Positions 15,811-57,610 of a stretch of DNA of 64,000 nucleotides are shown here, piece by piece (positions within the stretch are counted from its first letter, which is position 1; every line of letters starts with the position of its first letter). A program made the position numbers and the translations under genes. Where the stretch lies: the IMG/VR virus record IMGVR_UViG_3300042301_002363, positions 24,098 to 88,097 of that record, one strand, 5' to 3'. Below the pieces are notes generated by a model. The model was given only the letters and a program-made list of their open reading frames with translations. It ran no database searches and was not told the origin of the DNA. The stretch comes from a virus.

Positions 15811-18800
15811 TTAATAATTATCATCAAAAAACATACCTCCAAATTCCATAGCGCCTGGTGCTGTATACATTGTTCCCCCAAACCTTTGAATAAAGTTTTG
15901 ACCGTACATTTGTTGTTGTGTTTTTGTTTGTGCATTTGCTTTATTTAAATTCTGAGAAATACAAGCCTTTTGCATATTAGACGCATACTCTTCTTTAGCA
16001 TCTTGATCCATTGTTGTATCATTTTTAACTTGGGCCATTGCATCAGAATATGCTTTTGAACAATCTGCTTGTGTTGCTGCTGCACCTGAAGAGACTGAGG
16101 TATCAACAGATGATAATGGATCTTTACCATAACCTGACCATGCAAATGTAGGTTGAAGACGTTGTGCATGCCATGCATTTGGATACATAACTCTTAAAGC
16201 ATTATCTTTTTGTACATTGCCAAATCCTTGACCAAAAAGCATTGCACCTTGTGCATCTTTCTTATTACGTTGTGCAGCTAATTCCTCTTGATATGTTGCA
16301 CCTTCTGTATCAAACTTACCACGTAATAATGTGTTTTTGTAATCAACATCAGTATTAAGTTGACCAATTGTTTGAAGATATGGATTAACAATCTTAGTTG
16401 TGTTGCCTTCTTCAACATCAGCAATGTCTCTTGACAATTGTTCATACCCTTGATTTGCACCTGCAGCAAATGCTGTTTGTGCATCCATAGTATTCATTGC
16501 CAAATCCTGACTTTGTTTTACCAATCCTGTAGTACCAGCAATTCTAGTAATAGGATTAATTGTATCATATCCACTATAGGCAGCATTCATCTGTCTTAAC
16601 ACAGGTGGTGTGTTAGGAATTATTTGACGCTCATTAGCCATATAGTTTACAATGTCTGGAGCAAACCATGTTTGAGGCTGAGGTATACCACCTGGAGGTT
16701 TTTTAGGTGGTGGAGGTGTGCCACAATTTTTAGTTGCGTCATCAGCAGTTTCATACTGAGTAGCTTTAGTAACAGTTTTACCATTCACCTCACCACTTGG
16801 CGCAACAGGTTGTTCACCTTCTTTGTAAGAAACTGTTTTAGTTTCTTTTGTACCATCAGAATACTCAACACAGTAATATGTGCTTTTTTCACCTGGAACT
16901 TCTGGTGGTGGCGGTGGTTTAAGGTTATAACCAAGTCTTTCCTCTAACGTTGTGTTAGTACTAAATCTATCAATACCAGATACTTTACCTTGAATGCCAA
17001 ATACAGTTTCATCAGCTACACCAGTTTGTTGATGACTAGCTAATCCTTGAAAGTCTGGGTTATTCATAAGAGCACGTCTATAAGAAATATATGTACCCTG
17101 TCCTAGTTCATTTTTAGAAAAATCAATATCACTAAGGTTTACCTTGCCATCTTTTGACTGATTATCTTTAATGATTTGTCTGGCTTCTGCGTTTACGTAA
17201 TTACCTTGATAGTCACCATGAGTAGCATCTGATTTTACAGCAACATTCTGGCCAGCTACAAAGTTAGGATCTGACCATGGACCTGTCCCTGATGTTCTAT
17301 CCCCATAACCAAACGCTGCCATTCTTGCATTGTTTTCTTCAAATTGCATCATTGTATTAATGATTGCTTCAGGATTTTGTGCAAGTGCTTTTACATCTGT
17401 GCCATATAAGTCTGAAAACTTCTTTCTTGTATCTTTTTCTTTACCAGTATACATTCGCAGTTCTGGATCTGCAACATCTGCTTGATACTGACCTACAATT
17501 GCATCTCTAAATTTACTATTTAATCGTATTTGATTATTTGCATTTTTAAAGTCAATGTATGCTTGTGTATTACCATTCCATCTTGAGTCAACTTCCTTTT
17601 TCTCAGAAGCATTAAGATTATCTGCTGTTATCCAATCATAAGAACTACGAGTTATTTCTGCACCTGCAGGAATAGATTCTTTAGTTGTATTGTTTCTTCT
17701 AAGAATAATATTACCAGTTGCTTGGTCTTCTAAAACCTGAACTTCAGTATCACCACTTTTACTTTTGTAAGTTAATGTATACGCATTCATTGGTTTACCA
17801 CCATTTCTATTTGGATCAGTTACAACTTTTACTTCACTCTTAACTGGATCTCCTGAACCTGATACTGTCCCAGCATTATTGTATTTAGGTAAAACAGAAC
17901 CTCCTCTGTCATAACGCAGTTTACCATTTTCATTAATAAGACCACCATACTTAAAGACTTTATCTCCAATGGTTATATTAGAACCAAGTGTTGGCATTGT
18001 ACCACCAAATTTCATACCCCCAGAAGATCCAAAAATATTATCAAGATCCTGATCTGTAAATCCACCTTCATATTTTGGTTTTGAAGGTGCTGGTTGTGAT
18101 TGTTTTCCTACTGGAGTTACAGTGCCAGGTTTTTGTTCTGTATTCTTTTTTACAGGAATTACAGTTTGTGGATTAATTTTATTTTCTTGCTCTAGCATTT
18201 GAATAGCATCCATTGGTGCTTTGGCTGCAGGAAGTGCAACTTTCTTACCTTCTTTTGTAGAAGCTGCTACATTCAATGCGTCAACCCAAACTTGGTTTGA
18301 TACTTCTAATTGAGCACCATCTTGTGTTTCTTCAAACCAAACCATTTGACCATCAATATTTTTACCCATTGTAAATATTGAGTTTGGCGCAGCTTTAAGT
18401 TTATATGGTTGAGCATAACCTTTTGAATCTTTTGCACTGTTAGATGGATTTTGTACTTGACTTATTGCTCTAACATTGTCAGCTATTTCTGGTGCATTAT
18501 AATTTAAAAAACCTTGTCTTTCATTTGTATGTGTCAACCCTTTATTACCCAAAGGTGCAATTGTTGCAACAGTAGTACCTTTTATTTTGTCATGACCTTT
18601 TGTAATTTCATCATATATTTCAAAATAAGTTTTGTATCTAGGTCCACCAAACCATGAATCAGTTCCCTCAACAACATCATTTTGATCAAGATTCATTCCT
18701 AGTATTTCTGTTTCGTTAAACAAAAAGTCAGTAGGATAACCATAACGATACATTACCTCCTCATCTTGAATTACGTTTCCTATACCTGGTCCAGGTAGCC

Positions 18801-20769
18801 AACTGTTTTCTGCTTCAAACTTTGAAGAGTTTACATTTTTTTTCCAACTTTTATGACCTGGGCTTTCTAAGTATTCCTTATAGCGTTTGTATTTAGCAGA
18901 AAGATCAGCATACTGTTTTTTAGTTTTTACATCTACTGCTTCTCTAGCTTTTTTATCAAAATCAGCTATCAAATCATCTGCTTTTGACAGCATTGTTTCT
19001 GTTTGATAATACTTTTGTATTTTAGTTTTTTCCTTTTCATTTAAAATTTTATAAGCTTGCTCATACAATATGTCATACATATCATCAACCTTATCTTGAT
19101 CTGTAAAAGGCAACCAACCTAAACTCCAATCTACATCAATGTTTTTTATATCATCAGCTGCAGCTATCATTTGCTGAGGGTCATTTGACAAAAGTGCTTT
19201 GTAAAATGTATCCCCTGCTACAAATTGACCTGAACCAGAGTTCATATATTCTTTAAGAGCATCTTTGCTACCAAATCCTGGGATAGTATTTCCTAATGCT
19301 TTTTCTTTTTGATACTTATCAGCATAACTTTCAAAACCTTCTGCTTTAGCTTCCTCTTCTCTTTTTGCTTTTGCTTTTTGCTCACTTGAAAGTGTGCCAT
19401 ACTTTTTATCTGTGTCATACACAAGATCCTCTTCTGCTTGACGTTCATCTGTAAACTTGCCAGTAGCAGGATCTAATCCCAAAAAGTATTTATTAAGATC
19501 TTTCAGTAACGCTTGTTCTTCAGTTGTTGCATTGCCTTCTAATACCTTTTTTGTGAGTGTACCTGCTTGGCTTGCTTTTTCGTAGTAACCTTCTTTTTTG
19601 CGTTTTTCTTCAATAAGTCTTGTTTGTTCTGCTTTTGACTTTTCATATGCAGTAGGACCATTGTCAATTATCTTAAAAGATTTGTCAAAAAGTTCTTGAG
19701 CTTTTTGATCTGCTGCAGTAGGTTTTTTCTTAGGCGCTGCTGTTACTGGTGGAGATTGCCATTGTTGAGCATTACTTTGAAATGCTTCGTATGGTATATT
19801 ATAAATTTGTTTTACATTTTTAAAAGTAGGAGTGACACATTCTCCAATAGATGAATTATAAACATAACCAGGTTTACATGCAGCTGGTGCATAACTATTA
19901 CCATAAACAGTTCTGTTTAACATGTCAAACCATGATTCACCACCTTCAGGAAATTTAGGTTTCATACTTCCACCATATCTTCCTTGCATTTGATTAGCAA
20001 TATCTTCAGGTGCTACAGCAGGACCTTCAGGTAACATACCTTGCATTGCATCCTCATCTTCTGACATAGGTATTCCCTGTCCTTCCATTGGAGGCATCAT
20101 TCCTTGTTGTGGCATTCCCATACCTTGCTGAGGTTCCTGTGGCGCAAACTGTTGTGCCATTTGATTAGGGTCAATACCCATTGTGGAAAGAACCTCTTCA
20201 GCAATAGCAGGAATTCCATCAGGAAATCCTTTCATTGATTCTTGAATGAAAGCAAGTAAACCAAGTTTCTGTTTGTTCTTTTTAAGCATTTCAGCTGCAG
20301 AACGTTTTGCTAATGGATCTGAAGTTTCATCTTTTAAAATCTCAACATACATGTTGATATCATATTTCCTAGAAATTTCAGCAGGTGTGTATCCTTGTTT
20401 TCTTGGAGGAAGATTAAATATTTTTTCAATTACTTCTGGATCTTTTATTGTAAGATTCTTTGTGTCTGAGTAAATAAATGAACCTTCAGGTATATTGACA
20501 GGTACGCCACCTTCAGTATGTCTTTTTCCTTTAAAGTGCATAAGCTCCATAGTGCCATCTTTATTGACATCGCCAATAACAGATTCACCACCTTCAACTT
20601 CTATATTTGCTTGATCTCTTGGAATAGCACCCATTGTATCATTTACAGAAACAGATTCAGGAGACGTTTGCATTCCTCTTGAATTTCTAACAAGACCATA
20701 TCCATCTTGTTGTCCTGTGCTTTTATATGTTCCACCTTCTGGAGATGTTTTTATGCGTACCTTAAACAT
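15811..20769 (-). CDS. Virion cargo protein (1652 aa) with crAss-type N-terminal domain and GG-motif repeats
   Basis: N-terminal ANIEVEGGE...GKRHTEGGV...FIYSD block resembles conserved crAss-like cargo proteins; multiple YGG/FGG motifs and Q/M/P-rich linkers. Confidence 0.65.
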   Translation of the reverse strand: MFKVRIKTSPEGGTYKSTGQQDGYGLVRNSRGMQTSPESVSVNDTMGAIPRDQANIEVEGGESVIGDVNKDGTMELMHFKGKRHTEGGVPVNIPEGSFIYSDTKNLTIKDPEVIEKIFNLPPRKQGYTPAEISRKYDINMYVEILKDETSDPLAKRSAAEMLKKNKQKLGLLAFIQESMKGFPDGIPAIAEEVLSTMGIDPNQMAQQFAPQEPQQGMGMPQQGMMPPMEGQGIPMSEDEDAMQGMLPEGPAVAPEDIANQMQGRYGGSMKPKFPEGGESWFDMLNRTVYGNSYAPAACKPGYVYNSSIGECVTPTFKNVKQIYNIPYEAFQSNAQQWQSPPVTAAPKKKPTAADQKAQELFDKSFKIIDNGPTAYEKSKAEQTRLIEEKRKKEGYYEKASQAGTLTKKVLEGNATTEEQALLKDLNKYFLGLDPATGKFTDERQAEEDLVYDTDKKYGTLSSEQKAKAKREEEAKAEGFESYADKYQKEKALGNTIPGFGSKDALKEYMNSGSGQFVAGDTFYKALLSNDPQQMIAAADDIKNIDVDWSLGWLPFTDQDKVDDMYDILYEQAYKILNEKEKTKIQKYYQTETMLSKADDLIADFDKKAREAVDVKTKKQYADLSAKYKRYKEYLESPGHKSWKKNVNSSKFEAENSWLPGPGIGNVIQDEEVMYRYGYPTDFLFNETEILGMNLDQNDVVEGTDSWFGGPRYKTYFEIYDEITKGHDKIKGTTVATIAPLGNKGLTHTNERQGFLNYNAPEIADNVRAISQVQNPSNSAKDSKGYAQPYKLKAAPNSIFTMGKNIDGQMVWFEETQDGAQLEVSNQVWVDALNVAASTKEGKKVALPAAKAPMDAIQMLEQENKINPQTVIPVKKNTEQKPGTVTPVGKQSQPAPSKPKYEGGFTDQDLDNIFGSSGGMKFGGTMPTLGSNITIGDKVFKYGGLINENGKLRYDRGGSVLPKYNNAGTVSGSGDPVKSEVKVVTDPNRNGGKPMNAYTLTYKSKSGDTEVQVLEDQATGNIILRRNNTTKESIPAGAEITRSSYDWITADNLNASEKKEVDSRWNGNTQAYIDFKNANNQIRLNSKFRDAIVGQYQADVADPELRMYTGKEKDTRKKFSDLYGTDVKALAQNPEAIINTMMQFEENNARMAAFGYGDRTSGTGPWSDPNFVAGQNVAVKSDATHGDYQGNYVNAEARQIIKDNQSKDGKVNLSDIDFSKNELGQGTYISYRRALMNNPDFQGLASHQQTGVADETVFGIQGKVSGIDRFSTNTTLEERLGYNLKPPPPPEVPGEKSTYYCVEYSDGTKETKTVSYKEGEQPVAPSGEVNGKTVTKATQYETADDATKNCGTPPPPKKPPGGIPQPQTWFAPDIVNYMANERQIIPNTPPVLRQMNAAYSGYDTINPITRIAGTTGLVKQSQDLAMNTMDAQTAFAAGANQGYEQLSRDIADVEEGNTTKIVNPYLQTIGQLNTDVDYKNTLLRGKFDTEGATYQEELAAQRNKKDAQGAMLFGQGFGNVQKDNALRVMYPNAWHAQRLQPTFAWSGYGKDPLSSVDTSVSSGAAATQADCSKAYSDAMAQVKNDTTMDQDAKEEYASNMQKACISQNLNKANAQTKTQQQMYGQNFIQRFGGTMYTAPGAMEFGGMFFDDNY

Positions 20770-20782
20770 ATTTTAAAATTTT

Positions 20783-20810
20783 AAAAAGGGATATGTCTTA
20801 CCACATCCCT
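20783..20810 (-). terminator. Intrinsic terminator-like hairpin
   Basis: Minus strand AGGGATGTG-gtaaga-CATATCCCT followed by TTTT, between the 906-aa and 1652-aa genes. Confidence 0.5.
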
Positions 20811-20828
20811 CATTAGAAGTTACAAAAT
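20808..20828 (-). promoter_or_regulatory. Conserved late-region upstream motif, copy 1
   Basis: Minus strand ATTTTG-TAACTT-C-TAATGAGG; related copies at 38658, 45360 and 52589. Confidence 0.5.
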
Positions 20829-20857
20829 TATTCTGATTTATCCTATCCTCCATAATA

Positions 20858-20865
20858 CAAATGTA
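20858..20865 (-). promoter_or_regulatory. Bacteroidota sigma70 -7 element
   Basis: TACATTTG on the minus strand matches TAnnTTTG, in an intergenic gap. Confidence 0.45.
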
Positions 20866-20871
20866 GGAATT

Positions 20872-23592
20872 CTAATCTAAAAATTCAACCTCGCCACCCA
20901 TCTGTATAATGGCTTGCAATTCTTGTGGAGAAATCATATATGTTCCACCCCTTCTATAATTTTTGGTTCCTCCAAATTTAGAAAGTGTAGTACCCCAATC
21001 TTGTGTATGACCAAGGTCTGCAACATATTGATTGGCTCCTGGTCCAGCATTCAAATTCCAAGTACCATAACTTCCTTGAGTATTGATTGCATTATTAGCC
21101 ATCATAGTATTACCAGCTTGTTTCTGACGTTTCTTTAAGTCTTTAACTGCTCTTCTTTCTGCCCATTGTGCTGTGGCATCCTCCATCATATTGAGACCTT
21201 GAAGTGTATTACTTGCTACTTGAAATCCTAATGGATCTCCACGTTGAGTAGTATACTCTTTTGTGTCAGTCATGTTAGCATTAGGATTAGCACTCAATGC
21301 ATTATTAGTATTGTCTGTAGTATTAATTGCTCCATTTGTCCCTGGTGCAGATGCGTTTGCAGGATTATTAAAGTTTGAAACATAAGTGTTATAAGCATCC
21401 CAATCATTTCTATTTAATGGGAATGGTCTACCTGTTTTAGTTGCCCATTCTTGCTGAGAGTATGCAACTGTTTCAGTATCAAGCGCACCACCCCCAACAT
21501 ACATTGGCATTGTGATATTTAACTTACGTCTATTATCTACAAATGGATTCCACTCGCCACCATCTCTTTTGTTCTCATCATTAATTGGTCCTGACAAATT
21601 GCTAACCATTGAAGGTGCAGCTACAGGCGCTCCTCCAGCATTAGGATCAACAGGTGCAACTGGATTCTTTTTAGGAACATTAGGATTATAGTTAGGTGCA
21701 GATGGATTATCTGATTGTAAGTCTCCATTGACTGAACCATTTGGTGGTTGATTCACGTTCAATTGACTATTCATATAGTCAAGTTTAGGATTACCTGTTG
21801 ATGTATTTTCTGGTACAGTTGATGTTGTTGGTTGTACAGGTCCACTTGGCGTGGCTGCAGGCTGCTGAGCATTTCTTAGCGCTCTTCTCTCATCACCTTT
21901 ACTGTTATAAAAGAATACATTACCCTTATCATCATAAACACGAGATTCATCACCAGCCATTCCTTTAGCAATACCTAATCCTGCACCTCCAGCAACTGCT
22001 GCTGCACCCATTAAAAACTTAAGTCCAGGACCAAATCCACCAGTAATAGGTGCAAACCTTGGATCAGCAAATGAATTACTTACTGCCATTGCTCTTGTTG
22101 CCCAATTGGAATCAATGTTTGCAATTTTATTTTTGTCAGACATTACAATGTATGGGCTATTAGTAGTTCTTGGATCTACAGGCATTGTACCAGATGGATT
22201 ATTAGCTGCTCCAGTTTTCCATTGGTCATATGACAACTGAGGTGCAGCACCAGTATTACTAGCATTAGTTGCAGAATATTGATTTACATAATTCTGGTAT
22301 GCAGCTGGACTAGTTTTCATTTCGTTATACATTTGATCCTGAGCAGGATTCTGAGAAATAAATTCCTCATACGATTGCATTGGTGCTCTATTCATGCTAG
22401 GATCAACTTTACCACTATTATAAAAGTCTACAACTTGTGTTTGATATTCTTGTTGTGCTTGACCTGCACCAAATATTTTTAAGCAATCACCATCAGGACC
22501 TTTGTAGTATCCAATTGGACATCCATCCTCAGTTCCTCCTGCACCATATTGCTTCATTCCACCATTGACAAATTTATTAAGTCCACCAAAGCGTGCATAT
22601 CCTTGAGTAGCGGGAACTTGTGGTTGTGGATTAGTTGTATTTTGAAAAGATTGAAAAAAGTTATTTCCTGGATTTGCCATCTGATCATTGCGAATACCAG
22701 AATACAAGTTGCCAATAGCTTGCTGTGATGCCTGTTTTTGTGCAACACGATTGGCATCATAATTTGCTAGTCTATTTGCATAATAACCAGCTTCTGCACT
22801 ATTTCTAGTATCAGCTGCTTGTGCAGATGCAACTACATTTTGATTATACTGATCCATTCCTGCTTTTGCACCTTGTGGTCCAGCAACTTCATTGCCACCA
22901 AATATTTTCATTCCACCAGCACCTTGTTGTGCAGTGTTTGCTGTAACAGCAGTAGGCATACACGTTGCAGTCATTTCATTCCATTCGTATCCATCAGGAC
23001 ATGAATTACCACCTGCACCATATCTACGTAACTTTTTCATAGAACCACCATATCTTGCTTGCATTGCCATTTCTTGATCTGACATTTGTTGTTGATCAGA
23101 ACCTTGAGCCATTGCCATTTGAGACTGATCCATGCCAGTTTGTGGTCCAGCTTGTTGCCCCATTCCCATTGGATCTTGGTTGTTAAGGATTCCCATTTGT
23201 TGTTGCAATGCCATTTGCTGCTGTTGTTGCAACTGTTGCTGTTGAGCCTTTTCATTTACATAGTCTCCTTCTTGAGCAAGTTTCATGTATTCCTCTTTGG
23301 CAACAGTTAATAATTCTTCAGCTTGTTCGCGCTTTACTCCAGAATCAATTAATGTCTTTTTAAGAATACGTTCACTTGTTCCTTTGTTCAACTGTTCTAA
23401 GAGAAAAGTCATAAGTTGTTTTGCAGTTGCATCTAATGGATTAGGTGGACGCATTTGTTGTTGTTGCATTTGACCCATGTCTGCAACAGCTGATTGATTT
23501 TGCTGCATCATGTCTCCACCATCAGCATAACGTACTTTGCCACCACACTTGTAGCATTGGCCTCCAGTCATATATTCTAACATGTTATTCAT
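20872..23592 (-). CDS. Low-complexity virion cargo protein (906 aa), Q/M/N/G-rich with many GG motifs
   Basis: Long ORF with poly-Q tracts, about 13 xxxGG motifs, two CPxGY mini-modules and one hydrophobic segment (FLMGAAAVAGGAGLGIA). Confidence 0.6.
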   Translation of the reverse strand: MNNMLEYMTGGQCYKCGGKVRYADGGDMMQQNQSAVADMGQMQQQQMRPPNPLDATAKQLMTFLLEQLNKGTSERILKKTLIDSGVKREQAEELLTVAKEEYMKLAQEGDYVNEKAQQQQLQQQQQMALQQQMGILNNQDPMGMGQQAGPQTGMDQSQMAMAQGSDQQQMSDQEMAMQARYGGSMKKLRRYGAGGNSCPDGYEWNEMTATCMPTAVTANTAQQGAGGMKIFGGNEVAGPQGAKAGMDQYNQNVVASAQAADTRNSAEAGYYANRLANYDANRVAQKQASQQAIGNLYSGIRNDQMANPGNNFFQSFQNTTNPQPQVPATQGYARFGGLNKFVNGGMKQYGAGGTEDGCPIGYYKGPDGDCLKIFGAGQAQQEYQTQVVDFYNSGKVDPSMNRAPMQSYEEFISQNPAQDQMYNEMKTSPAAYQNYVNQYSATNASNTGAAPQLSYDQWKTGAANNPSGTMPVDPRTTNSPYIVMSDKNKIANIDSNWATRAMAVSNSFADPRFAPITGGFGPGLKFLMGAAAVAGGAGLGIAKGMAGDESRVYDDKGNVFFYNSKGDERRALRNAQQPAATPSGPVQPTTSTVPENTSTGNPKLDYMNSQLNVNQPPNGSVNGDLQSDNPSAPNYNPNVPKKNPVAPVDPNAGGAPVAAPSMVSNLSGPINDENKRDGGEWNPFVDNRRKLNITMPMYVGGGALDTETVAYSQQEWATKTGRPFPLNRNDWDAYNTYVSNFNNPANASAPGTNGAINTTDNTNNALSANPNANMTDTKEYTTQRGDPLGFQVASNTLQGLNMMEDATAQWAERRAVKDLKKRQKQAGNTMMANNAINTQGSYGTWNLNAGPGANQYVADLGHTQDWGTTLSKFGGTKNYRRGGTYMISPQELQAIIQMGGEVEFLD

Positions 23593-26500
23593 TTTCTGAT
23601 AAATTTACTTAATTTTTTTATACTACCACCATATCTATTATTAGTAGTTTGCTGTTCTTCACCATTGTTCATCATTGTACCAGCAGCTCCTCCAACACCA
23701 ATTGTAATTGCAACTTGAGGTAAAATTTGAATCAATGATTTTTTAGTCTCATATGTTGCTTCTGGTTTAAAATGTTTATTCAGATTACCAAAGCCACTAT
23801 CTAAATAATATTGATAAAGTTCATCATCTCCTATCCTTTCCATTTCTTTGATTTGCTTTATAGCATCATCCATATTGATATTTTTTTCTTTCATTATTTG
23901 ATTTGCAAAATTAAATCTAGCCTTTTGCAACTCTGAATGAAGTTCTCCTGGACTACTTAACCATGATTGATAATCATAATCTTTTTCCACTGTTCCATCT
24001 GCTTTTGTTACTTCTTTAGCAGGTAAAGGATTTAGCATTGCTTCATTATATGTCTCAGCTAATATGTTATCTGAATGACCAGTATAATATCCAGCATCTT
24101 GATCATATTTCTGAATAAGATTTATCCAACTATCATACATAGGTTGTATATCATGACCAATCTCATGAGCATTAACTCCTGCAACTTGATAAAGAGAAGT
24201 TGGACTTTGATAACTTCTATCTATTAGTCTAGCTGTTCCATCAGAAGTTGGATCAACATAACTATATGTACCTTCAGGTTCTATCCAATTGTATTTTGGT
24301 TTAAACCATGGGTTAAATGTATTATTTTTCCAAGTCAATGGGTTTGTAATTTGAAATGGATTTGTTTGTTCATAATAACCAGGTTTTGTCACATTAAACT
24401 TTTGTTTAGGTTTTGCTAAAAAATAAGATTGTACAGGTTTAGATGCAAGTGTTATTGTGCTATTGCCAGTTCTAACTCCACCTAAAGTTGGATAATTTTT
24501 TAACAAGTAGTCTTGGTCATCAAATGATAAATTTGAGAAATTTTTTGCTGTAGGATCAACATCTACAAGTGTTGTCCTTTTAGCATCAAATAATGGATTC
24601 CACATACTTACTTTTGTACCACCAAGATCTATTGGCGGTGTACCTATCATTTCTCTATTAAAACCATGCATATATTGAGGCATAGGTCTACCAGCTAATG
24701 TGTGCAATTCACCAATTTTACCTCTAAAATCTGGATCCATGTTGGCTTCCATTTCATCATACAACTTGAAACTATCATCATATAATTGTTGTTCTTGTTG
24801 TGCTAATTTTAAACCACGGTTATATGCTAACTTTACAGTTGGATCTTCTTGTGATATCGCTTTATCAAAATAACCACTTGAATGCATTTCTTGTTTGAGC
24901 GCATCAAGATCGTCATATTTTTGAGTAAGAGCAGTGGCATCATTTCCTGCAAATCTACCAAATGCCTCACTTGGTTTTAAGAATGGTTTATTATAAGTTC
25001 TAAATGTATCCAACGCTGTATAAAGATCTTTTATTTCAGTATCACCTAATCCTTTTACATCTCTTAAATAATTATCAAGTATAGATCTTTCTGCATATAT
25101 ATTCCAATTATAATATTTATTTTGTTTAAGTGATACAAGATCATTATGATTGGTCGTTAACTTAGTACTTAAATCTTCATATTTTAAAGGATCTTTAAAC
25201 ATCCATTTTTGTGAGAAGTCTGTGGCTTGATCAAATACTCTTTGTTGAGCTTGTTCAACTGTTTCTCCAGGAAGAAAACCTTCTTCCCCAAAAGTGTTTA
25301 GTTTTCCTAAGCGTTGTTGATCTTGAATTAAATTTGGATATCTTTTTAAATATGCATCATACTCATCTTTGCCAGATAATCTAGTAAATTCATACTTGTC
25401 ATAATCTTTAGTAGGATCTAATGAAAGAGGTGGATTTTGAGAACTATTGATTCCATTTGTGTTTTGCAAATTAAAACCTTGCTTCAAGCTAGGAACAGAA
25501 AGTTGTGACTGCAAACCATTTGAAAGTTGCAATGCTTGGTTTGAAAATGCTGGCAAACTTGTAGTACCACTTCCTAGAAATTTGGTAAGTGGAGTTTGAT
25601 TTGCAAGTTGCATTGCTTGTGACTCTCCTAATTGAGGAGCTGTTTGTCTTAAAAATTTATATTCTCCAAGATTATTTGCACCTGTAAATCTATTCAACCT
25701 GCTTGTAAATCCAGGAAACATTTCTGTAGTATTAGCCAGATTAGTGTTACCTGCTAATAAATTTGAACCTGATGGAGTTTTAGCAAGAAGACTATATGAG
25801 CCTGGTGTTTTCAATATTGCATTTGCGCCTGGTGTTCTTAAAGCATTAAGTGCTCTGTATGAACCAACTAATGGTTTAACTGCAGGCAAAAGACCAAGAG
25901 CTGAAAAAGCTGTGTTTTTCCATGCTTCATCTGTATCGCCTTTTTGAAATGCGTCATATGCTTGTTCAGCAAATCCTTGTGGTTTTAATGTTTCATATGC
26001 TCCATATGCTCCTAATGCATTACCTACTGTCAATCCTGGTAATGTTGAGAATGGTGCGTATGCCATGGCTGAACTTAATGCTCCTACAGTAAAAGGAGCT
26101 GCAGCAATCACACCTGGTGCATAGAATAATGGATGTTTATAAAACTCTTCCATATTATCACCAAGCATTGCTTTGTTATATTTATCTGCTTCTTCTTGTG
26201 TCATGTATACTGTTTGTCCAGCCATTTCATCTGGAGTTACAGTTTTTGTACGAAGTTCGCCAGTCATTGGATCAACTCCTCCAGTTGGTACTTGAAATGA
26301 GTATTGATAGAACTGTCCAGAAGGATTACCAAAAGCATCCTTTTTATTTGGATCAGTGACAAACATTTTATTTGGTCTCCAAGAATCTTCACTTGCTATT
26401 TGTACAGCAACTCTTCCATCTTTCCATCTTTTTTCTGCTTCTCCTAACGTAGGAGAATATTTTTGACCAAATGCTTGTGGAGTCAAAGATGTGTAATCTT

Positions 26501-28025
26501 TAAGTTTATTCATTGACTGCACATCAAGTTGAGATGGTTCAGTTATCAATGCTTTGTATGAATCATCTGAATCTAATCTTACCAATTGATTTGATTTAGG
26601 CATCCATCCCCATTTACCTGTTCTAAGTTTATAAAGGATTTGCGCACCATAGTCAGGACTATTGCTGTAATTAGGAGAAACAATATCAATATTAGCACCA
26701 TGACTATCAATAAAGTCTCTATCTTTTGCCAATGTGATTATATCATTATCATTCCATCTATTAACTATATCTAGATCTTGTCCTTGCTCATATGGTTTTT
26801 CATATTCATCGCTGTAAGCAACAAAAGATTTTGCCCATTTCTCTACCTCATTAAAATCTTGATTATACAATTTTTCCAAAGATTCTCTTGATTGACCAAG
26901 ACCTTTTTTATTAACCAAGTAGTCAATAGCAGCATCTCTACTCATACCTTTTTTCATAAGGTCAAGCAAGAAGTTTTTGGTTTGATAAGCATGATACTGA
27001 TCAGCTTGATCCATGATAGTACCAAATGATTCTTTTATGCTTTCTGCTGTACCAACACCAAGTTTGTTTACAATTTCACCTGTTCTTAAACCATTATCCC
27101 ATATTCTAGATTGTATTTCTGTTGCTGGATATAATTCAACAATATTATCTTTAACATTTACAAAATATCCTTGTTGTTTCAATTCTTCTAGATAGTCAGG
27201 ATTAGCATTTATTCTGCTATCATATTCATATTTTGGTATTGTTTCAAATGGTTCTAGTGCATCATGCTTACCTTTTTTGTCAAAATCTTCTTTTCGTTTT
27301 GTCAACTTATCTTGCCATTGTTGCGCAGCCCACTCTTGGTTTTTCAATTGTAACGCTTCTCTTTCAGCTTTTAAGTCGCTCAAAGTTTGGTCTAACTTTG
27401 CCATTCCTGCAGACCAATCCACATCTTCTTGTGTTACAATAGGATATGTTGCTTCTTGTCTTGCCCATTTTTCCTCTTGTGTCAATTCGTCTCCAGGTAA
27501 TTCAAAACCTTGACCTGGTTGATTTATAACCAATGGTACTTTAGTTTTCCAATCCTCATTTGTATTTACTTCTCCAGTAATAGGATCTATCATATGGGTT
27601 GTGTTCCAAATATCATCCAAATATCCTGGTTGTCCATAGTCAGGTCCCATGCTTTTTTTCTTTCTTCTTTTTCCAAAAAGACCACCTTCATCAAATTGTG
27701 GAACTTGTTGTGAGAACTTTTTACTTTGCATTACTTGCAAAAAGTTAGGTTCTTTTCTAAGTTTCTCAATAACAATTTGCTCCATGTTTAATGGACCTCC
27801 AACTCTTTGACTATTTTCTTTTGACAAGTAGTATTCATACAACTCAGGAAAATGCTTATCTATATTACCAGAGTTAATTAAAGATTGTGCTAGTTTTTTT
27901 TGACGTCTAGCAATAGATAAAAATTCACCACCATCTGGATATTTTTTTAAACTAGAGTTTTTCTTTCTTGAACTTGAGAATTCAGAAAGCTTATCAAACA
28001 TCCTTTTTTGACTATACTTTGCCAT
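23589..28025 (-). CDS. Virion cargo protein (~1478 aa) with C-terminal zincin-like domain
   Basis: NAHEIGHDIQ at 24153-24167 with downstream SPGELHSEL; hydrophobic segments; GG motifs at both ends. ATG at 28025 preferred over the TTG at 28028. Confidence 0.65.
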   Translation of the reverse strand: MAKYSQKRMFDKLSEFSSSRKKNSSLKKYPDGGEFLSIARRQKKLAQSLINSGNIDKHFPELYEYYLSKENSQRVGGPLNMEQIVIEKLRKEPNFLQVMQSKKFSQQVPQFDEGGLFGKRRKKKSMGPDYGQPGYLDDIWNTTHMIDPITGEVNTNEDWKTKVPLVINQPGQGFELPGDELTQEEKWARQEATYPIVTQEDVDWSAGMAKLDQTLSDLKAEREALQLKNQEWAAQQWQDKLTKRKEDFDKKGKHDALEPFETIPKYEYDSRINANPDYLEELKQQGYFVNVKDNIVELYPATEIQSRIWDNGLRTGEIVNKLGVGTAESIKESFGTIMDQADQYHAYQTKNFLLDLMKKGMSRDAAIDYLVNKKGLGQSRESLEKLYNQDFNEVEKWAKSFVAYSDEYEKPYEQGQDLDIVNRWNDNDIITLAKDRDFIDSHGANIDIVSPNYSNSPDYGAQILYKLRTGKWGWMPKSNQLVRLDSDDSYKALITEPSQLDVQSMNKLKDYTSLTPQAFGQKYSPTLGEAEKRWKDGRVAVQIASEDSWRPNKMFVTDPNKKDAFGNPSGQFYQYSFQVPTGGVDPMTGELRTKTVTPDEMAGQTVYMTQEEADKYNKAMLGDNMEEFYKHPLFYAPGVIAAAPFTVGALSSAMAYAPFSTLPGLTVGNALGAYGAYETLKPQGFAEQAYDAFQKGDTDEAWKNTAFSALGLLPAVKPLVGSYRALNALRTPGANAILKTPGSYSLLAKTPSGSNLLAGNTNLANTTEMFPGFTSRLNRFTGANNLGEYKFLRQTAPQLGESQAMQLANQTPLTKFLGSGTTSLPAFSNQALQLSNGLQSQLSVPSLKQGFNLQNTNGINSSQNPPLSLDPTKDYDKYEFTRLSGKDEYDAYLKRYPNLIQDQQRLGKLNTFGEEGFLPGETVEQAQQRVFDQATDFSQKWMFKDPLKYEDLSTKLTTNHNDLVSLKQNKYYNWNIYAERSILDNYLRDVKGLGDTEIKDLYTALDTFRTYNKPFLKPSEAFGRFAGNDATALTQKYDDLDALKQEMHSSGYFDKAISQEDPTVKLAYNRGLKLAQQEQQLYDDSFKLYDEMEANMDPDFRGKIGELHTLAGRPMPQYMHGFNREMIGTPPIDLGGTKVSMWNPLFDAKRTTLVDVDPTAKNFSNLSFDDQDYLLKNYPTLGGVRTGNSTITLASKPVQSYFLAKPKQKFNVTKPGYYEQTNPFQITNPLTWKNNTFNPWFKPKYNWIEPEGTYSYVDPTSDGTARLIDRSYQSPTSLYQVAGVNAHEIGHDIQPMYDSWINLIQKYDQDAGYYTGHSDNILAETYNEAMLNPLPAKEVTKADGTVEKDYDYQSWLSSPGELHSELQKARFNFANQIMKEKNINMDDAIKQIKEMERIGDDELYQYYLDSGFGNLNKHFKPEATYETKKSLIQILPQVAITIGVGGAAGTMMNNGEEQQTTNNRYGGSIKKLSKFIRK

Positions 28026-28034
28026 CAATTAAAT

Positions 28035-30380
28035 TTAAAAAAACTTACGCAATTTTCCTATATTTCCTCCATATTTAGCCATCTGTATATCAGATCCTGA
28101 TACATCATTTTTACCTTCTCCAGAACTAGCAAGAAGGTTAAACAGATTTGCCAAAGATTTGTTATCCTTAGAAAGTCTATACAACCTGTAAATATCATCA
28201 ATATAGTTAGGATTATTTCTATCTGTATATCCTTTTTGTACAGCTTCTTCCATCATTTGTTTAACTCTTTCTTCTGTAATAACATCTGTTGGTTGAAGGT
28301 TAAATAATTGTCTTGCTACATTTATGTTTGAATGAATATTATCTTCTTTTGGTGTAGTTGAATAATAATAGTCTTCCTCCATTTGTGCTATGGTTTCATC
28401 ATCTTTTGGATTAATCTTTCCTTCTTTGATTCCTCTATCAATGATATCATCAAATGACATTAAGTTATCCTCAATAGTTCCTGAATAAAACTGTTGATAC
28501 TTTTTGTTCTCAAAGAATGGTTCATTTAGATACGTAGTCCATTCATGATCTAATGTTGCAGCATAATCAAGAGGTTTACCTAACTCATCCTTTCTTACAT
28601 AAATCTGTGCTGGATTTCCATCAGCAGCTTTCACATATTGACCTACAGCACTAGGATCACCAAGCTCATCTTTATATACAATTGGTGGAAGTTCTGAACC
28701 TCCTTCATTTGGAACAAATTGATTTTGCATTTGTGGAATCACAGTATTCATAAGATCAACATGTTTCTGTACTTCATTTGGATATTTTGGATCAGTAATC
28801 GCTTTAAGGTATTCAGGATCAGTAAGAATTTCTGGACGTTTTTGATACCAGTTTTTCATATATGTTTCTGTATCCATTGGATTAGGAAGTTCAACTCCCA
28901 TTGGTACGCATGTTTGATGCACATCACTCCATTCATGATTTTCTGGACAATCACCTGGACCCATCATTCCACCCATTGCTTTTCTACGCAACTTACGTTC
29001 TTGCTCTATCATCTCGCGCGTAGGCTTTCTACCAGAACCTTTGTTAGCTCTTATGTTATCCCAAAGACCTCTTTGTGAATATGACCCATCAGCACGTTTA
29101 ATCATCTCACCACCTTTTCTGTAATTGCCATTCATAAATGCAGGAGACACTTCTTTGTAGTGTTCTGCAAAGTATCTAGCATCTGCTGGATTATCAAACT
29201 GCATTGCTTCATTTGAAGACGCATCGTAATCACCTAGCATCAACTGACCATTTTGGTTTTGTATTTGTGGTACAGCGTAATTGTCCATACTTGCCATATA
29301 ATGTGTACCAACTTGACCATTATCAAACATATATGGATTATCAACAGGTGCTACCATTCTTTGAGCTGCTGGATTACCAAATTCATTTGCATAAGCTAAT
29401 CTTGATTTCATCATTGCATTGGTAGAGTCTTGCAAGTGTTGTGGTAATGGCACATCATATTGGCCTTCATATTCTTTATAGTCTTTTACAACTTGTCCTT
29501 GTGGTGTATTTTCTCTCCAATTTCTGTACTCATTCAAAGTATCCTGCATTAATTGGTAATCAGTTAATGTCCAACTTGCTGGATTTCCTATTTCTGCTTC
29601 AACACTTTTTATATATTGTTTCCATTCTTCAGGAGAATTTGGCACACCCATTCCTAGTTCACCACCTGTTTCCCAGGTAGCTTTTGCGTATGCTCTAAAG
29701 TATGGGTTCTTTTTAAGATTGCCTGCATGTCTTGCGTAAAAAGCATCTTTACCATTCTTTGATTTGCTACGTTCACCCATATTTGGATCGCCAAAATATT
29801 TTTTAGTACCATCAGGTCCAGTTACAACATGCGTTTTTCCTTTACGATCATTAGATTTTCTTACAGTGTATCCACCTTTACCATATTGTGGCATATCAAA
29901 ATCACCACCATACTGCATGTTGTTAAGAATTTTATTCTGAACATATTCTGGTAAAGCATTAAAACCTGGATTGTTGATTGTACCTCCTTCTTCTTTAGCA
30001 AAGTTTCTGGCAAAGTTTGCTTTCTTTATCATTGCTGACGAATAGTTATCTTTATTTGCCAATATATGTGCAGCTGCTTCTTGTATGCCCATACCCATGC
30101 GCGTAGCTTGAGCTTTGAATGTTCCTTTTTTAGCAGGATCTAGATGTATACCACCACGCTTTGCTTGTTGATATGCTTGCTCCATGCTCATCTCTTCTTG
30201 AGGAGGCATTTGTTGTTGCATACCTGGTACAAATTGACCAAGTTCTTGAGCTTGATTCTGCATCAATGCTTGTTTCAGTTGATCTTTTAGAGACTTTTCT
30301 TGTTGCACTTGAGCTTGTCTTTTACCAAAGTTGGCTAACACATCAGCTATTGTGAACTTGTTAGGGTTACTTGAATTCAT
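28035..30380 (-). CDS. Modular cargo protein (781 aa): small basic modules separated by GG motifs, degenerate zincin-like C-terminus
   Basis: Modules IHLDPAKKG...KKANFARN, RKSNDRKGK...FGDP...FYARH and KRADGSYSQRGLWDNIR, each flanked by xxxGG; HEWTT at 28533-28547. Confidence 0.6.
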   Translation of the reverse strand: MNSSNPNKFTIADVLANFGKRQAQVQQEKSLKDQLKQALMQNQAQELGQFVPGMQQQMPPQEEMSMEQAYQQAKRGGIHLDPAKKGTFKAQATRMGMGIQEAAAHILANKDNYSSAMIKKANFARNFAKEEGGTINNPGFNALPEYVQNKILNNMQYGGDFDMPQYGKGGYTVRKSNDRKGKTHVVTGPDGTKKYFGDPNMGERSKSKNGKDAFYARHAGNLKKNPYFRAYAKATWETGGELGMGVPNSPEEWKQYIKSVEAEIGNPASWTLTDYQLMQDTLNEYRNWRENTPQGQVVKDYKEYEGQYDVPLPQHLQDSTNAMMKSRLAYANEFGNPAAQRMVAPVDNPYMFDNGQVGTHYMASMDNYAVPQIQNQNGQLMLGDYDASSNEAMQFDNPADARYFAEHYKEVSPAFMNGNYRKGGEMIKRADGSYSQRGLWDNIRANKGSGRKPTREMIEQERKLRRKAMGGMMGPGDCPENHEWSDVHQTCVPMGVELPNPMDTETYMKNWYQKRPEILTDPEYLKAITDPKYPNEVQKHVDLMNTVIPQMQNQFVPNEGGSELPPIVYKDELGDPSAVGQYVKAADGNPAQIYVRKDELGKPLDYAATLDHEWTTYLNEPFFENKKYQQFYSGTIEDNLMSFDDIIDRGIKEGKINPKDDETIAQMEEDYYYSTTPKEDNIHSNINVARQLFNLQPTDVITEERVKQMMEEAVQKGYTDRNNPNYIDDIYRLYRLSKDNKSLANLFNLLASSGEGKNDVSGSDIQMAKYGGNIGKLRKFF

Positions 30381-36223: not shown

Positions 36224-36228
36224 TGCTT

Positions 36229-37398: not shown

Positions 37399-37401
37399 TT
37401 A

Positions 37402-38070: not shown

Positions 38071-38071
38071 T

Positions 38072-42045: not shown

Positions 42046-42047
42046 AG

Positions 42048-49411: not shown

Positions 49412-49642
49412 TTATTTACGTTTTCTTGCAAGTGTCATAGTTGACTTCTTTGCTGCAACAGACCCACCTTTTTTAAAGTTACGTGTTTCACCACGAGTTG
49501 TATTGGTGTTTGAATTATCTACACCACTAGGTGCTGGTTTAGGTCCAGACCCAACCATGCTTGGTGTCATTTTTCTTCCTGTTGATGCATTGAATCCTGT
49601 GCTACTACCACCAGCATTCATACGTTTAAGTTGCTTTGCCAT
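49412..49642 (-). CDS. Small basic protein (76 aa), probable internal head protein
   Basis: Directly downstream of the capsid gene; K/R-rich and disordered; carries MNAGG and FKKGG motifs. Confidence 0.6.
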   Translation of the reverse strand: MAKQLKRMNAGGSSTGFNASTGRKMTPSMVGSGPKPAPSGVDNSNTNTTRGETRNFKKGGSVAAKKSTMTLARKRK

Positions 49643-57609: not shown

Positions 57610-57610
57610 A

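What the first reader, a model, noticed from the sequence alone, without database searches (positions are those of the whole stretch)
15811..30380. A recurring xxxGG code punctuates four cargo proteins: candidate polyprotein-processing or capsid-loading system
Seen: about 35 copies of a motif, usually (Y/F/M/W)xxGG or (R/K)(Y/F)GG. In the 781-aa protein: AKRGG, KEEGG, MQYGG, YGKGG, WETGG, YRKGG, KAMGG, AKYGG. In the 1479-aa protein: YPDGG, FDEGG, NRYGG. In the 906-aa protein: YMTGG, YKCGG, YADGG, ARYGG, YGAGG twice, ARFGG, FVNGG, SKFGG, YRRGG. In the 1652-aa protein: GRYGG, FPEGG, MKFGG, FKYGG, YDRGG, QRFGG, MEFGG. Copies cluster at termini and between unrelated modules and are not evident in the neighbouring 891-aa and 1859-aa proteins. 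Known: adenovirus protease cuts (M/L/I)xGG-x, ASFV pS273R cuts GG-x, and T4 internal proteins use a short capsid-targeting sequence. Inference: the motif is either a maturation cleavage site that releases many small proteins from polyproteins or a multivalent tag that docks cargo inside the procapsid.
Basis: partly seen in the sequence, partly recalled or inferred. Interest (0 to 1): 0.85.

Follow-up and report, generated by a model that had tools for sequence, protein, structure and literature searches.

The report
Gly-Gly seam motif in crAss-like cargo
Four large proteins that this crAss-like phage most likely carries in its particle and injects are strings of swappable modules, and their joints and ends carry one short conserved peptide ending in Gly-Gly, which looks more like an uncut hinge or docking seam than a protease cutting site.

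Summary
In the four proteins at 15811-30380, [KR][YF]GG occurs 9 times against 0.3 expected. The other ORFs show no excess.

The motif glycines are conserved in relatives, while other GG pairs are not. They lie in low-confidence parts of both models. In the 781-aa protein they mark where homology with 120 mosaic relatives starts and stops: 73% of 389 boundaries lie within 6 aa of a GG, against 14% for random sites. All four proteins, and their counterparts in three related genomes, end in an aromatic-GG tail.

The excess recurs in crAss001 cargo protein gp45 and Cellulophaga phi4:1 gp040.

Cutting is not supported:
- No GG-specific or prohead protease family was found.
- 15 of 36 notional fragments would be 15 aa or shorter.
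- The solved portal-bound gp45 domain begins at AFGG.

It is not excluded either, because a conserved zincin-like domain sits in these proteins. Docking is untested.

This scan found the same motif before on other DNA: 84 notes in at least 77 genomes. Six paper searches turned up no description of it.

The parts
28035..30380 (-). 781-aa cargo-type protein, first gene after the muzzle gene (the slot of crAss001 C1 gp45). Small cassettes are bounded by GG at residues 76, 132, 158, 169, 239, 423 and 470. The C-terminal domain (about 475-751) is zincin-like but lacks HExxH. The tail is AKYGGNIGKLRKFF.
23589..28028 (-). 1479-aa cargo-type protein. The cassette at residues 38-106 lies between YPDGG (ends 34) and FDEGG (ends 116). 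The C-terminal domain is zincin-like with HEIGH. The tail is NRYGGSIKKLSKFIRK.
20872..23592 (-). 906-aa protein, mostly low-confidence or disordered, rich in Q/M/G/N. It has 13 motif copies, with glycines of 9 of its GG pairs invariant in 49 homologs.
15811..20769 (-). 1652-aa protein with 10 motif copies, including an array at residues 917-957 and a double FGG C-terminal tail.
23515..23574 (-). 906-aa protein residues 7-26, YMTGGQCYKCGGKVRYADGG: three motif copies 7-8 aa apart. All six glycines, C13 and C16 are invariant.
22954..23055 (-). Composite seam: RYGG-x10-GG, then a CPxGYxW..C hairpin (906-aa protein residues 180-213). A second copy lies at 22480-22593. Related copies lie at 19837-19980 (1652-aa protein) and 28947-29021 (781-aa protein).
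20875..20979 (-). 906-aa protein C-terminal tail, KFGGTKNYRRGGTYMISPQELQAIIQMGGEVEFLD. This tail type is shared with many mosaic relatives, including ones that carry SET or ART-PolyVal domains.
28038..28079 (-). 781-aa protein C-terminal tail, AKYGGNIGKLRKFF (tail type 'aromatic-GG plus 9 aa ending FF/FL').
23592..23639 (-). 1479-aa protein C-terminal tail, NRYGGSIKKLSKFIRK. It is conserved in 4 of 4 related genomes and in many zincin-bearing relatives.
24153..24167 (-). HEIGH, the putative zinc-binding motif of the zincin-like domain of the 1479-aa protein.
17899..18021 (-). 1652-aa protein residues 917-957: four GG copies within 41 aa (GGMKFGG...KYGG...YDRGG).
15814..15888 (-). 1652-aa protein C-terminal tail, QRFGGTMYTAPGAMEFGGMFFDDNY.
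30380..38082 (-). Context: the muzzle-like 1947-aa gene (30380-36223), preceded by crAss ring protein 1 (36229-37398) and ring protein 2 (37402-38082). This fixes the four genes in the cargo slot of the crassvirus gene order.

Best explanation
The four genes encode virion 'cargo' (ejected, polyvalent-type) proteins of a divergent crAss-like phage. Each is a string of small, exchangeable modules and disordered spacers.

The motif has two registers: aromatic or Met at -3 with a basic residue at -2, or a basic residue at -2 with an aromatic at -1. Gly-Gly follows, then often E, T or S. It is a protein-level seam.

The proposed mechanism has four parts. That the motif is a conserved seam is shown; the rest is inferred.
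1. The GG is an uncut swivel between modules.
2. The neighbouring aromatic and basic side chains cap the next module, or dock the chain on lumenal surfaces. In crAss001, the ordered cargo segments seen on the portal wing and the tail-barrel rings begin at or just after such a motif.
3. Because every cassette carries the same seam, and every chain ends in an aromatic-GG tail, cassettes can be swapped without disturbing packing in the head or module-by-module threading through the portal and tail.
4. The C-terminal tails probably act as anchoring or loading tags.
For: Cargo slot:
- CrAss_Ring_1 and CrAss_Ring_2 lie directly before a muzzle homolog, and the four genes follow it. This is the crAss001 order muzzle gp44, C1 gp45, C2 gp46.

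Selection acts on the protein:
- Glycines of GG pairs make up 19 of the 64 invariant columns of the 49-sequence alignment of the 906-aa family.
- Motif GGs are kept in orthologs, while GGs without an aromatic context (VPNEGG, KKPPGG, PIDLGG, QVPTGG) are not.
- Gly codon use in the motif equals the background.

The motif sits at seams:
- 73% of 389 internal BLAST boundaries of the 781-aa protein against 120 relatives lie within 6 aa of a GG, against 14% for random sites (0 of 2000). 5 of 8 boundary clusters are at a GG (2 of 2000).
- Cassettes occur in permuted order in relatives such as P0242 and P0278.
- Cassette 38-106 of the 1479-aa protein, bracketed by motifs ending at 34 and 116, sits at 176-244 or 264-345 in orthologs.

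The copies are flexible:
- 13 of 13 copies in the 906-aa model and 6 of 6 in the 781-aa model lie in stretches with pLDDT under 50. In the 781-aa model they lie 4-11 aa before the confident modules.

Tails:
- The four window proteins, and the 14 counterparts listed for three relatives (L003-L005), end in [YFH]GG 6-31 aa before the C-terminus.
- 82 of 120 relatives of the 781-aa protein have an aromatic-GG in the last 40 aa (shuffles give 11.3). So do 49 of 49 relatives of the 906-aa protein (5.4). 0 of 21 other window ORFs do.

Signs that the seams are uncut:
- Tandem copies lie 7-14 aa apart, and 15 of 36 notional fragments would be 15 aa or shorter.
- In gp45, AFGG is residues 425-428, where the portal-bound domain 425-552 begins. 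AYGG is residues 207-210, 4 aa before the tail-barrel segment 214-245.
- crAss001 virion gels show bands up to 150, 270 and over 300 kDa.
- No GG-specific or prohead protease family was found.
Against: - No binding partner was identified, so docking is inferred only from the crAss001 structure. That structure is of a distant relative: blastp between gp45 and the 781-aa protein gives E 0.02 over 83 aa.
- Invariant GG with a conserved upstream context is also what a protease site looks like.
- The same proteins carry a zincin-like domain whose HExxH is kept in 97 of 113 relatives.
- The literature on polyvalent proteins predicts processing by zincin-like peptidases, and phage P1 DdrB is processed (Iyer 2017, passages).
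- The absence of Pfam protease hits is weak evidence in a genome where the four proteins themselves hit no Pfam or PHROG family.
- The link between boundaries and GG is only marginal for the 906-aa protein: 44% vs 24% (126 of 2000) and 4 of 7 clusters (101 of 2000).
- Homologs are related to one another, so counts over them are not independent events.
- Low pLDDT may reflect shallow alignments rather than true disorder.
- The gel band identities in crAss001 are given only in a figure and supplement that I could not see.
Confidence: 0.5

Rival explanations
1. The motif, or a subset of its copies such as the one before each C-terminal tail, is a cleavage site. The zincin-like domain carried by the 1479-aa protein, or an unrecognised phage or host protease, cuts the cargo proteins in the head or after injection. 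This would release modules or remove loading tags, as T4 removes its capsid-targeting sequence.
For: - The motif sits at module joints.
- The GG pairs are invariant.
- The zincin-like domain keeps HExxH in 97 of 113 relatives. It is followed by a hydrophobic stretch and then a GG tail: 76 of 113 have an aromatic-GG near the domain end.
- The best fold matches of the paralogous 781-aa C-terminal domain are zinc metalloproteases: Zmp1 Z 6.7, rmsd 4.3, 180 aligned; PepO, neprilysin and ECE-1 Z 5.6-6.4. These are below the tool's level of confidence.
- Iyer 2017 predicts such processing for polyvalent proteins and cites P1 DdrB.
Against: - The first ordered residue of the gp45 domain is the A of AFGG.
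- The authors' model needs one gp45 chain to bridge the tail and the capsid across three motif copies.
- 15 of 36 fragments would be 15 aa or shorter.
- Pro follows GG in some copies: WFGGP and RVGGP here, AYGGP in gp45.
- crAss001 gp45 and gp46 have no HExxH.
- MPTase-PolyVal (PF18818) is not found in 5 of 5 records.
- No C39, C48, OTU, JAB, C5 or S78 family was found.
- N4 vRNAP, which carries such a peptidase domain, is packaged unprocessed according to Iyer 2017.
Confidence: 0.22
2. The motif has no function of its own. It is the common end of cassettes that spread by duplication and recombination (a scar or joint, like the conserved junction motifs before polymorphic-toxin domains), kept only because it is a harmless flexible linker.
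For: - Cassettes are shuffled and permuted, with breakpoints at the motif.
- The DNA coding for RYGGSMKKL copies is 82-87% identical over 31-34 nt between genes (families D11 and D13).
Against: - Non-homologous modules and five different tail types share the motif.
- The glycines stay invariant down to 35% overall identity while the flanks diverge.
- GGs outside the motif context are lost.
- Codon use shows no DNA-level constraint.
- The strong bias to the last 40 residues is not expected of a neutral linker.
Confidence: 0.13
3. The copies act as 'stickers' (Tyr/Phe plus Arg/Lys next to Gly, in Q/N/M/G-rich disordered chains) that make the cargo proteins condense with each other or with DNA. 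This would give a dense, fluid protein body that can be packed and then extruded.
For: - The 906-aa protein is predicted mostly disordered (mean pLDDT 41) and is rich in Q/M/G/N.
- An aromatic at -3 or -1 with a basic residue at -2 is the enriched context.
- Many copies per chain sit in tandem arrays.
- The resemblance to RGG/YGG stickers is recalled, not tested.
Against: - Positions are conserved residue by residue in alignments, whereas sticker grammars usually conserve composition rather than position.
- Copies are tied to module boundaries and termini.
Confidence: 0.1

Closest known systems
Cargo protein C1 (gp45) of Bacteroides phage crAss001 (Bayfield et al. 2023, PMC10172136; PDB 7QOG, 7QOI, 7QOJ, 7QOL, 8CKB; Pfam crAss_CARG1 PF25725)
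   Same: - Same gene slot, right after the muzzle gene.
- A virion cargo protein seen partly unfolded in the tail and the capsid.
- It carries the same aromatic-GG excess, 10 vs 3.7.
- Residues 346-419 align weakly with residues 45-126 of the 781-aa protein (E 0.02).
- Cassettes of the 781-aa protein occur in one chain with a crAss_CARG1 domain in relative P0242.
   Different: - No crAss_CARG1 match in this record or in four relatives, even at E<=10.
- There are four or five cargo genes here instead of two.
- These proteins have zincin-like C-terminal domains that gp45 lacks.
- The passages of the paper that I read do not mention the motif, and a find for 'cleav', 'proteoly' and 'protease' gave 0 occurrences.
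Polyvalent proteins of phages and conjugative elements (Iyer, Burroughs, Anand, de Souza, Aravind 2017, PMC5512222)
   Same: - Large, mosaic, fast-evolving proteins that are packaged and injected.
- Relatives of the 781-aa protein carry ART-PolyVal (E 9.8e-12), SET (E 2.6e-10), a weak Pkinase hit and CBM_14.
- A zincin-like peptidase domain sits in the same chains.
   Different: - The window's four proteins hit no Pfam family, and MPTase-PolyVal is not found.
- The paper contains no occurrence of 'crAss', 'linker' or 'glycine'. A shared seam peptide is not part of the described concept.
T4 internal proteins with a capsid-targeting sequence, and encapsulin cargo-loading peptides (both recalled, not read here)
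   Same: A short terminal peptide on cargo destined for the inside of an HK97-fold shell. Here every cargo chain ends in a conserved short tail after an aromatic-GG.
   Different: - The T4 tag is N-terminal and is removed by the prohead protease after Glu.
- Encapsulin tags have a different consensus.
- Here the motif is also internal and multicopy, no binding has been shown, and no prohead protease was found.
GG-X polyprotein processing by adenain-type or Ulp1-type cysteine proteases (adenovirus, ASFV pS273R), and double-glycine leaders cut by C39 peptidases (recalled)
   Same: A conserved Gly-Gly with a defined upstream context at the joints of a multi-part protein.
   Different: - Position -2 (P4) is basic here, not Met/Leu/Ile.
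- No C5, C48 or C39 domain was found.
- Copies sit in tandem 7-8 aa apart and a few residues from the chain ends.

Membership tests
Crassvirus virion cargo proteins (crAss001 C1/C2 type) | Genes lie directly downstream of the ring-protein and muzzle genes | tested here: met
   Pfam CrAss_Ring_1 (36229-37398, E 2.7e-6) and CrAss_Ring_2 (37402-38082, E 7.2e-20). The 1947-aa protein matches the annotated muzzle and structural proteins of csAssE, Cellulophaga phi4:1 and FpV4.
Crassvirus virion cargo proteins (crAss001 C1/C2 type) | crAss_CARG1 (PF25725) portal-binding domain | tested here: not met
   No match at E<=10 in G000 or G001-G004, and no Pfam hit for the four proteins. hhalign of the 1652-aa N-terminus against gp45 residues 401-578 gave E 0.16. 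The domain does occur together with cassettes of the 781-aa protein in relative P0242.
Crassvirus virion cargo proteins (crAss001 C1/C2 type) | Presence in the virion | not testable with these tools
   This is an uncultured phage. The Cellulophaga phi4:1 record annotates gp040 as a virion protein 'based on experimental MS/MS proteomics'.
Polyvalent proteins (Iyer 2017) | Several domains of disparate biochemical activity in one phage-borne polypeptide | tested here: inconclusive
   This holds for relatives (ART-PolyVal, SET, Pkinase, CBM_14). In the window's own proteins only the zincin-like domain (HEIGH) is recognisable.
Polyvalent proteins (Iyer 2017) | MPTase-PolyVal zincin peptidase domain (PF18818) | tested here: not met
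   0 of 5 records match at E<=10. A different zincin-like domain is present.
Viral polyproteins cut at GG-X (adenain, pS273R, Ulp1-like) or double-glycine leaders (C39) | A cognate cysteine protease encoded by the virus | tested here: not met
   - PF00770: 0 of 5 records
- PF02902: 0 of 4
- PF03412: 0 of 5
- PF02338 (OTU): 0 of 5
- PF14464 (Prok-JAB): 0 of 5

These are Pfam-level searches only. A novel protease would be missed.
Viral polyproteins cut at GG-X (adenain, pS273R, Ulp1-like) or double-glycine leaders (C39) | Cleavage after the second Gly | not testable with these tools
   Indirect evidence only. The gp45 model starts at the A of AFGG.
Terminal cargo-loading tags (T4 capsid-targeting sequence, encapsulin loading peptide) | A short conserved peptide at a chain end of the cargo | tested here: met
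   The four window proteins and the 14 counterparts listed for three relatives end in aromatic-GG tails. 82 of 120 and 49 of 49 relatives do so, against 11.3 and 5.4 in shuffles. Two widespread tail types are seen.
Terminal cargo-loading tags (T4 capsid-targeting sequence, encapsulin loading peptide) | The tag binds the shell, scaffold or portal and is needed for loading | not testable with these tools
   This needs an experiment. No computational result here bears on it.

The most novel reading that the evidence does not exclude
The aromatic/basic-GG peptides are a cargo code of crassviruses. In this reading, the multivalent seams and C-terminal tails load the cargo proteins into the procapsid. 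They also dock the chains in order on the portal and the tail-barrel lumen. Some copies, notably the one before each tail, would then be trimmed by the cargo-borne zincin. This would be a phage counterpart of encapsulin targeting peptides and the T4 capsid-targeting sequence, and it would let any cassette flanked by the seam be packaged and injected.
Probability: 0.2. Interest if true: 0.85.

Novelty: new variant of a known kind. Interest (0 to 1): 0.6.

Why it matters
Crassviruses are among the most abundant gut and marine phages, and how they load and eject megadaltons of cargo protein is an open question. A short, conserved seam shared across lineages has four uses:
- It gives a sequence handle for recognising cargo proteins that no family model detects. 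The four proteins here hit no Pfam or PHROG family.
- It defines the units in which these proteins evolve, which are cassettes that carry effector-like domains in relatives.
- It offers precise sites to mutate in cultured relatives, so that loading, ordered ejection and possible processing can be tested.
- If it proves to be a loading tag, it could be used to pack foreign proteins into such phages.

Tried and rejected
- **Family searches.** PHROGs and Pfam on the four proteins and the 891-aa neighbour gave no family, apart from a sub-threshold UPF0181 hit on the 891-aa protein. phmmer against PDB sequences with three of the four proteins gave nothing meaningful. tblastn of the 906-aa protein against 50,697 phage records found no match.
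- **ESM Atlas on the 906-aa protein.** Best score 0.76, below the level of a lead.
- **Complex prediction.** The job used the major capsid protein (alignment A3), the acidic 408-aa scaffold-like protein (A4) and the last 40 residues of the 1479-aa protein (A5). It scored 0.00 and 0.00, verdict 'no answer'. This is evidence neither for nor against binding. The portal, the ring proteins and the other tails were not tried because the cap is one job.
- **Homology of the 1652-aa N-terminus to the gp45 portal-binding domain.** hhalign gave E 0.16 and PF25725 was not found, so the idea is not supported. By eye a similar stretch (EVExGE...HxxGGV) occurs in phi4:1 gp040.
- **Fold searches with the 781-aa model.** Foldseek against PDB found no match at E<=0.001. 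The VIA wide search gave only Z<=6.7 matches to zinc metalloproteases, below the tool's level of confidence.
- **DNA-level explanations.** Direct repeats are only 19-40 nt long, and Gly codon use in the motif equals the background. A recombination signal or other nucleotide-level element was therefore dropped.
- **Double-glycine leader.** The 906-aa C-terminus (ISPQELQAIIQMGG) resembles one, recalled as LSxxELxxIxGG. I dropped the idea because the register differs, the peptide is C-terminal, no C39 peptidase is present, and a Leptolyngbya phage homolog has GY in place of GG.
- **The 76-aa ORF at 49412-49642 as a fifth motif carrier.** No ORF of 50 aa or more lies between the capsid gene and the next gene in 3 of 3 relatives with the same layout. 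A fourth relative has a different insert there.
- **Paper searches that found no description of the motif.** (0 papers; none of the 10 listed papers holds 'Crassvirales').
- **Material I did not see.** Supplements were not opened. Three sources could hold peptides spanning or ending at seams: Bayfield Extended Data Fig. 3 and Table 3, the band identities in Shkoporov 2018 Fig. 3a and its supplement, and the peptide lists behind the phi4:1 annotation.

Full report
**What the window is.** All long ORFs of the region lie on the minus strand. PHROGs identifies a large terminase (55405-57630), a portal (52674-55403) and a major head protein (49667-51295). Pfam identifies crAss tail ring proteins 1 and 2 (36229-37398 and 37402-38082). 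The 1947-aa protein that follows (30380-36223) matches the muzzle or structural proteins of csAssE, Cellulophaga phages phi4:1 and phi17:2, Flavobacterium phage FpV4 and Leptolyngbya phage Lbo-JY46 at about 25% identity. The window is therefore part of a divergent crAss-like phage. The record is 88 kb and estimated 69% complete. The four genes of the finding occupy the slot that holds cargo proteins C1 (gp45) and C2 (gp46) in crAss001, ahead of the giant RNA-polymerase-type proteins. None of the four hits a Pfam or PHROG family.

**The observation.** No shuffle reached any observed value.

- Shuffling only inside 15- or 30-residue blocks leaves the excess: 27 vs about 6, and 38 vs about 16 (0 of 1000 each). 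Plain GG is only mildly enriched, 51 vs 38.3 (7 and 17 of 1000).
- The 22 other window ORFs of 150 aa or more have no excess. In the whole record [KR][YF]GG occurs in these four proteins only.
- Around GG, aromatics are enriched at -3 and -1 (16 and 13 of 50 sites, 5.1 expected each) and basic residues at -2 (16 vs 5.5). E, T or S is common at +1. The same profile appears in three related genomes.

**Conservation.** The 906-aa protein has 49 database homologs down to 35% identity. Of the 64 invariant alignment columns, 19 are glycines of GG pairs. In a 15-sequence subset, 11 GG pairs are invariant. Orthologs of the other three proteins were taken from four related viral contigs, which are 94-100% complete. 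They keep the motif GGs but not the GGs that lack the aromatic context. Gly codon use in the motif matches the genes' overall use (GGT 40 of 66 against 222 of 406), so selection acts on the protein.

**The motif marks seams.** The 781-aa protein has 1681 database relatives at E<=0.001. The 120 best mostly share only 10-46% of its length, at 60-80% identity.

- I mapped BLAST alignments of these 120 relatives onto the query. 73% of the 389 internal alignment ends fall within 6 residues of a GG, against 14% for random sites (0 of 2000). 5 of 8 boundary clusters sit at a GG (2 of 2000).
- The blocks (about 76-135, 132-242, 245-428 and 420-473) occur in other orders in other proteins, each still flanked by the motif.
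- Some of these relatives carry ART-PolyVal, SET, a weak protein-kinase match, CBM_14 or the crassvirus cargo domain crAss_CARG1. This places the family among the 'polyvalent' injected proteins of Iyer et al. 2017 (abstract start and passages).
- For the 906-aa protein the association is weaker: 44% vs 24% (126 of 2000), and 4 of 7 clusters (101 of 2000).
- In the 1479-aa protein, the block 38-106, bracketed by motif copies ending at 34 and 116, sits at 176-244 or 264-345 in orthologs. In two relatives this slot is split into two genes (958/970 aa and 1046/1197 aa), and each ends in its own aromatic-GG tail.

**Chain ends.** The four window proteins, and the 14 counterparts listed for three relatives (L003-L005), have [YFH]GG 6-31 residues before the C-terminus.

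| Set | Aromatic-GG in last 40 aa | Shuffle mean |
|---|---|---|
| Relatives of the 781-aa protein | 82 of 120 | 11.3 |
| Relatives of the 906-aa protein | 49 of 49 | 5.4 |
| Other window ORFs | 0 of 21 | 1.0 |

Two tail types recur. The first is aromatic-GG plus about 9 residues ending FF/FL or FIRK. The second is GG followed by a roughly 28-residue element ending in ...G[GY]x[FV]E[FI]x.

**Structure predictions.** The AlphaFold2 model of the 906-aa protein (49-row alignment) has mean pLDDT 41. All 13 motif copies lie in stretches below 50. The model of the 781-aa protein (41 rows) has mean pLDDT 58.6, with confident parts at about 90-126, 246-300 and 475-751. All 6 aromatic motif copies, plus AKRGG and KEEGG, lie in stretches below 50, typically 4-11 residues before a confident part. 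Low confidence may partly reflect the shallow alignments.

**Other lineages.** The same pattern is enriched in Cellulophaga phi4:1 gp040: 10 vs 1.9, mostly [FY]QxGG. This is the second gene after the muzzle, and the record annotates it as a virion protein from MS/MS. It is also enriched in crAss001 gp45 (10 vs 3.7, sd 2.0). It is not enriched in the cargo-slot proteins of FpV4 or Lbo-JY46.

In gp45, AFGG is residues 425-428 and AYGG is 207-210. Bayfield et al. 2023 (passages) resolved residues 425-552 on the portal wing and 214-245 on the tail-barrel rings. They propose that one chain spans the portal between these two segments. So both ordered cargo segments start at, or 4 residues after, a motif copy, and the 425 copy is not cut after GG.

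**Cut or uncut.**

Against cutting:
- No match at E<=1 to Pfam S78, C39, C48, C5, OTU or Prok-JAB in the own record or in four near-complete relatives.
- 15 of 36 notional fragments would be 15 aa or shorter, and 19 would be 35 aa or shorter.
- Pro follows GG in some copies.
- crAss001 virions show bands at 150, 270 and over 300 kDa (Shkoporov 2018, methods passage). The band identities were not visible to me.

For cutting:
- The 1479-aa protein ends in a zincin-like domain (HEIGH). It is found in 113 representative proteins, mostly at the C-terminus (69 of 113). HExxH is kept in 97 of them, and an aromatic-GG lies near the domain end in 76.
- The 781-aa C-terminal domain is a weak paralog (E 0.004). 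Its best fold matches are zinc metalloproteases at Z 5.2-6.7, below the tool's level of confidence.
- Polyvalent proteins are predicted to be processed by such peptidases, although N4 vRNAP is packaged uncut (Iyer 2017).

**Verdict.** I put the uncut hinge or docking seam at 0.5, cleavage of at least some copies at 0.22, a neutral cassette end at 0.13, and a condensation 'sticker' role at 0.1. The residual 0.05 is for readings not listed.

**Earlier notes of this scan.** After I had reached this reading, a look-up showed 84 notes in at least 77 genomes on the same motif. The eight follow-ups listed reached the same verdict. They are not independent evidence. Three notes on this window gave leads that I tested:
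- the paired zincin-like domains with a shared tail;
- the cassette nature of the 781-aa protein;
- the 76-aa ORF, which is not conserved.

**Limits.** Supplements were not opened. The one complex job gave no answer. Homolog counts are not independent events. The motif pattern was defined after the sequence had been seen. No experiment bears on this phage itself.

Noticed in passing
window 22954-23055, 22480-22593, 19837-19980, 28947-29021; also 40681-42075: A two-cysteine hairpin, CPxG[YF]x[WY]-x4-7-C-[VM]P, follows the GG seam in three of the four cargo proteins and in their orthologs. It is predicted as a beta-hairpin. A similar CPEGFIYNPIIRKC occurs in the Cys-rich 464-aa tail protein.
   Followed up: partly
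The cargo evolves far faster than the shell.
   Followed up: partly
A fourth relative has unrelated ORFs there. It may not be a gene.
   Followed up: partly
window 20320-20769 (1652-aa protein residues 1-150): A highly conserved N-terminal domain (IEVEGGES...KRHTEGGVPVNIPEGSFIYSD; 79-93% identity in four relatives). It resembles a stretch of Cellulophaga phi4:1 gp040 (AEVEKGE...THEKGGVAIDL) and, loosely, the crAss_CARG1 region of P0242 and gp45. hhalign against gp45 was not significant (E 0.16).
   Followed up: partly
window 23515-23574 (906-aa protein residues 7-26): An invariant CxxC (C13, C16) sits inside the triple motif at the N-terminus. There is only one such pair per chain, so it might bind a metal between chains.
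   Followed up: no
window 21958-22041 (906-aa protein residues about 518-545) and 23640-23700 (1479-aa protein residues about 1443-1460): Gly/Ala-rich hydrophobic stretches (ITGGFGPGLKFLMGAAAVAGGAGLGIA; ITIGVGGAAGTMM) that look like membrane-insertion segments. A similar stretch follows the zincin-like domain in most of its 113 relatives. This recalls the predicted transmembrane helix of gp45.
   Followed up: no
protein P0049 (relative of the 906-aa protein), residues about 190-330: In some relatives the middle of the protein is replaced by a module that, from recall only, looks like a GH108-type lysozyme N-terminus (..KGGYKNGKAISLDNYGY..). It is inserted right after the first seam.
   Followed up: no
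L009 26062-28086 (Leptolyngbya phage Lbo-JY46, second gene after the muzzle): Its C-terminus, LSPEEVAKLIELGYDFEVV, matches the 906-aa tail ISPQELQAIIQMGGEVEFLD with GY in place of GG. The last GG of that tail is therefore probably a turn in a small fold rather than a site.
   Followed up: no
L003 3988-10004 and L005 3502-10004: The slot of the 1479-aa gene holds two genes in two relatives. The first (958/970 aa) is very motif-rich (10 and 8 aromatic-GG) and unrelated to the N-terminal half of the window protein beyond its first residues.
   Followed up: partly
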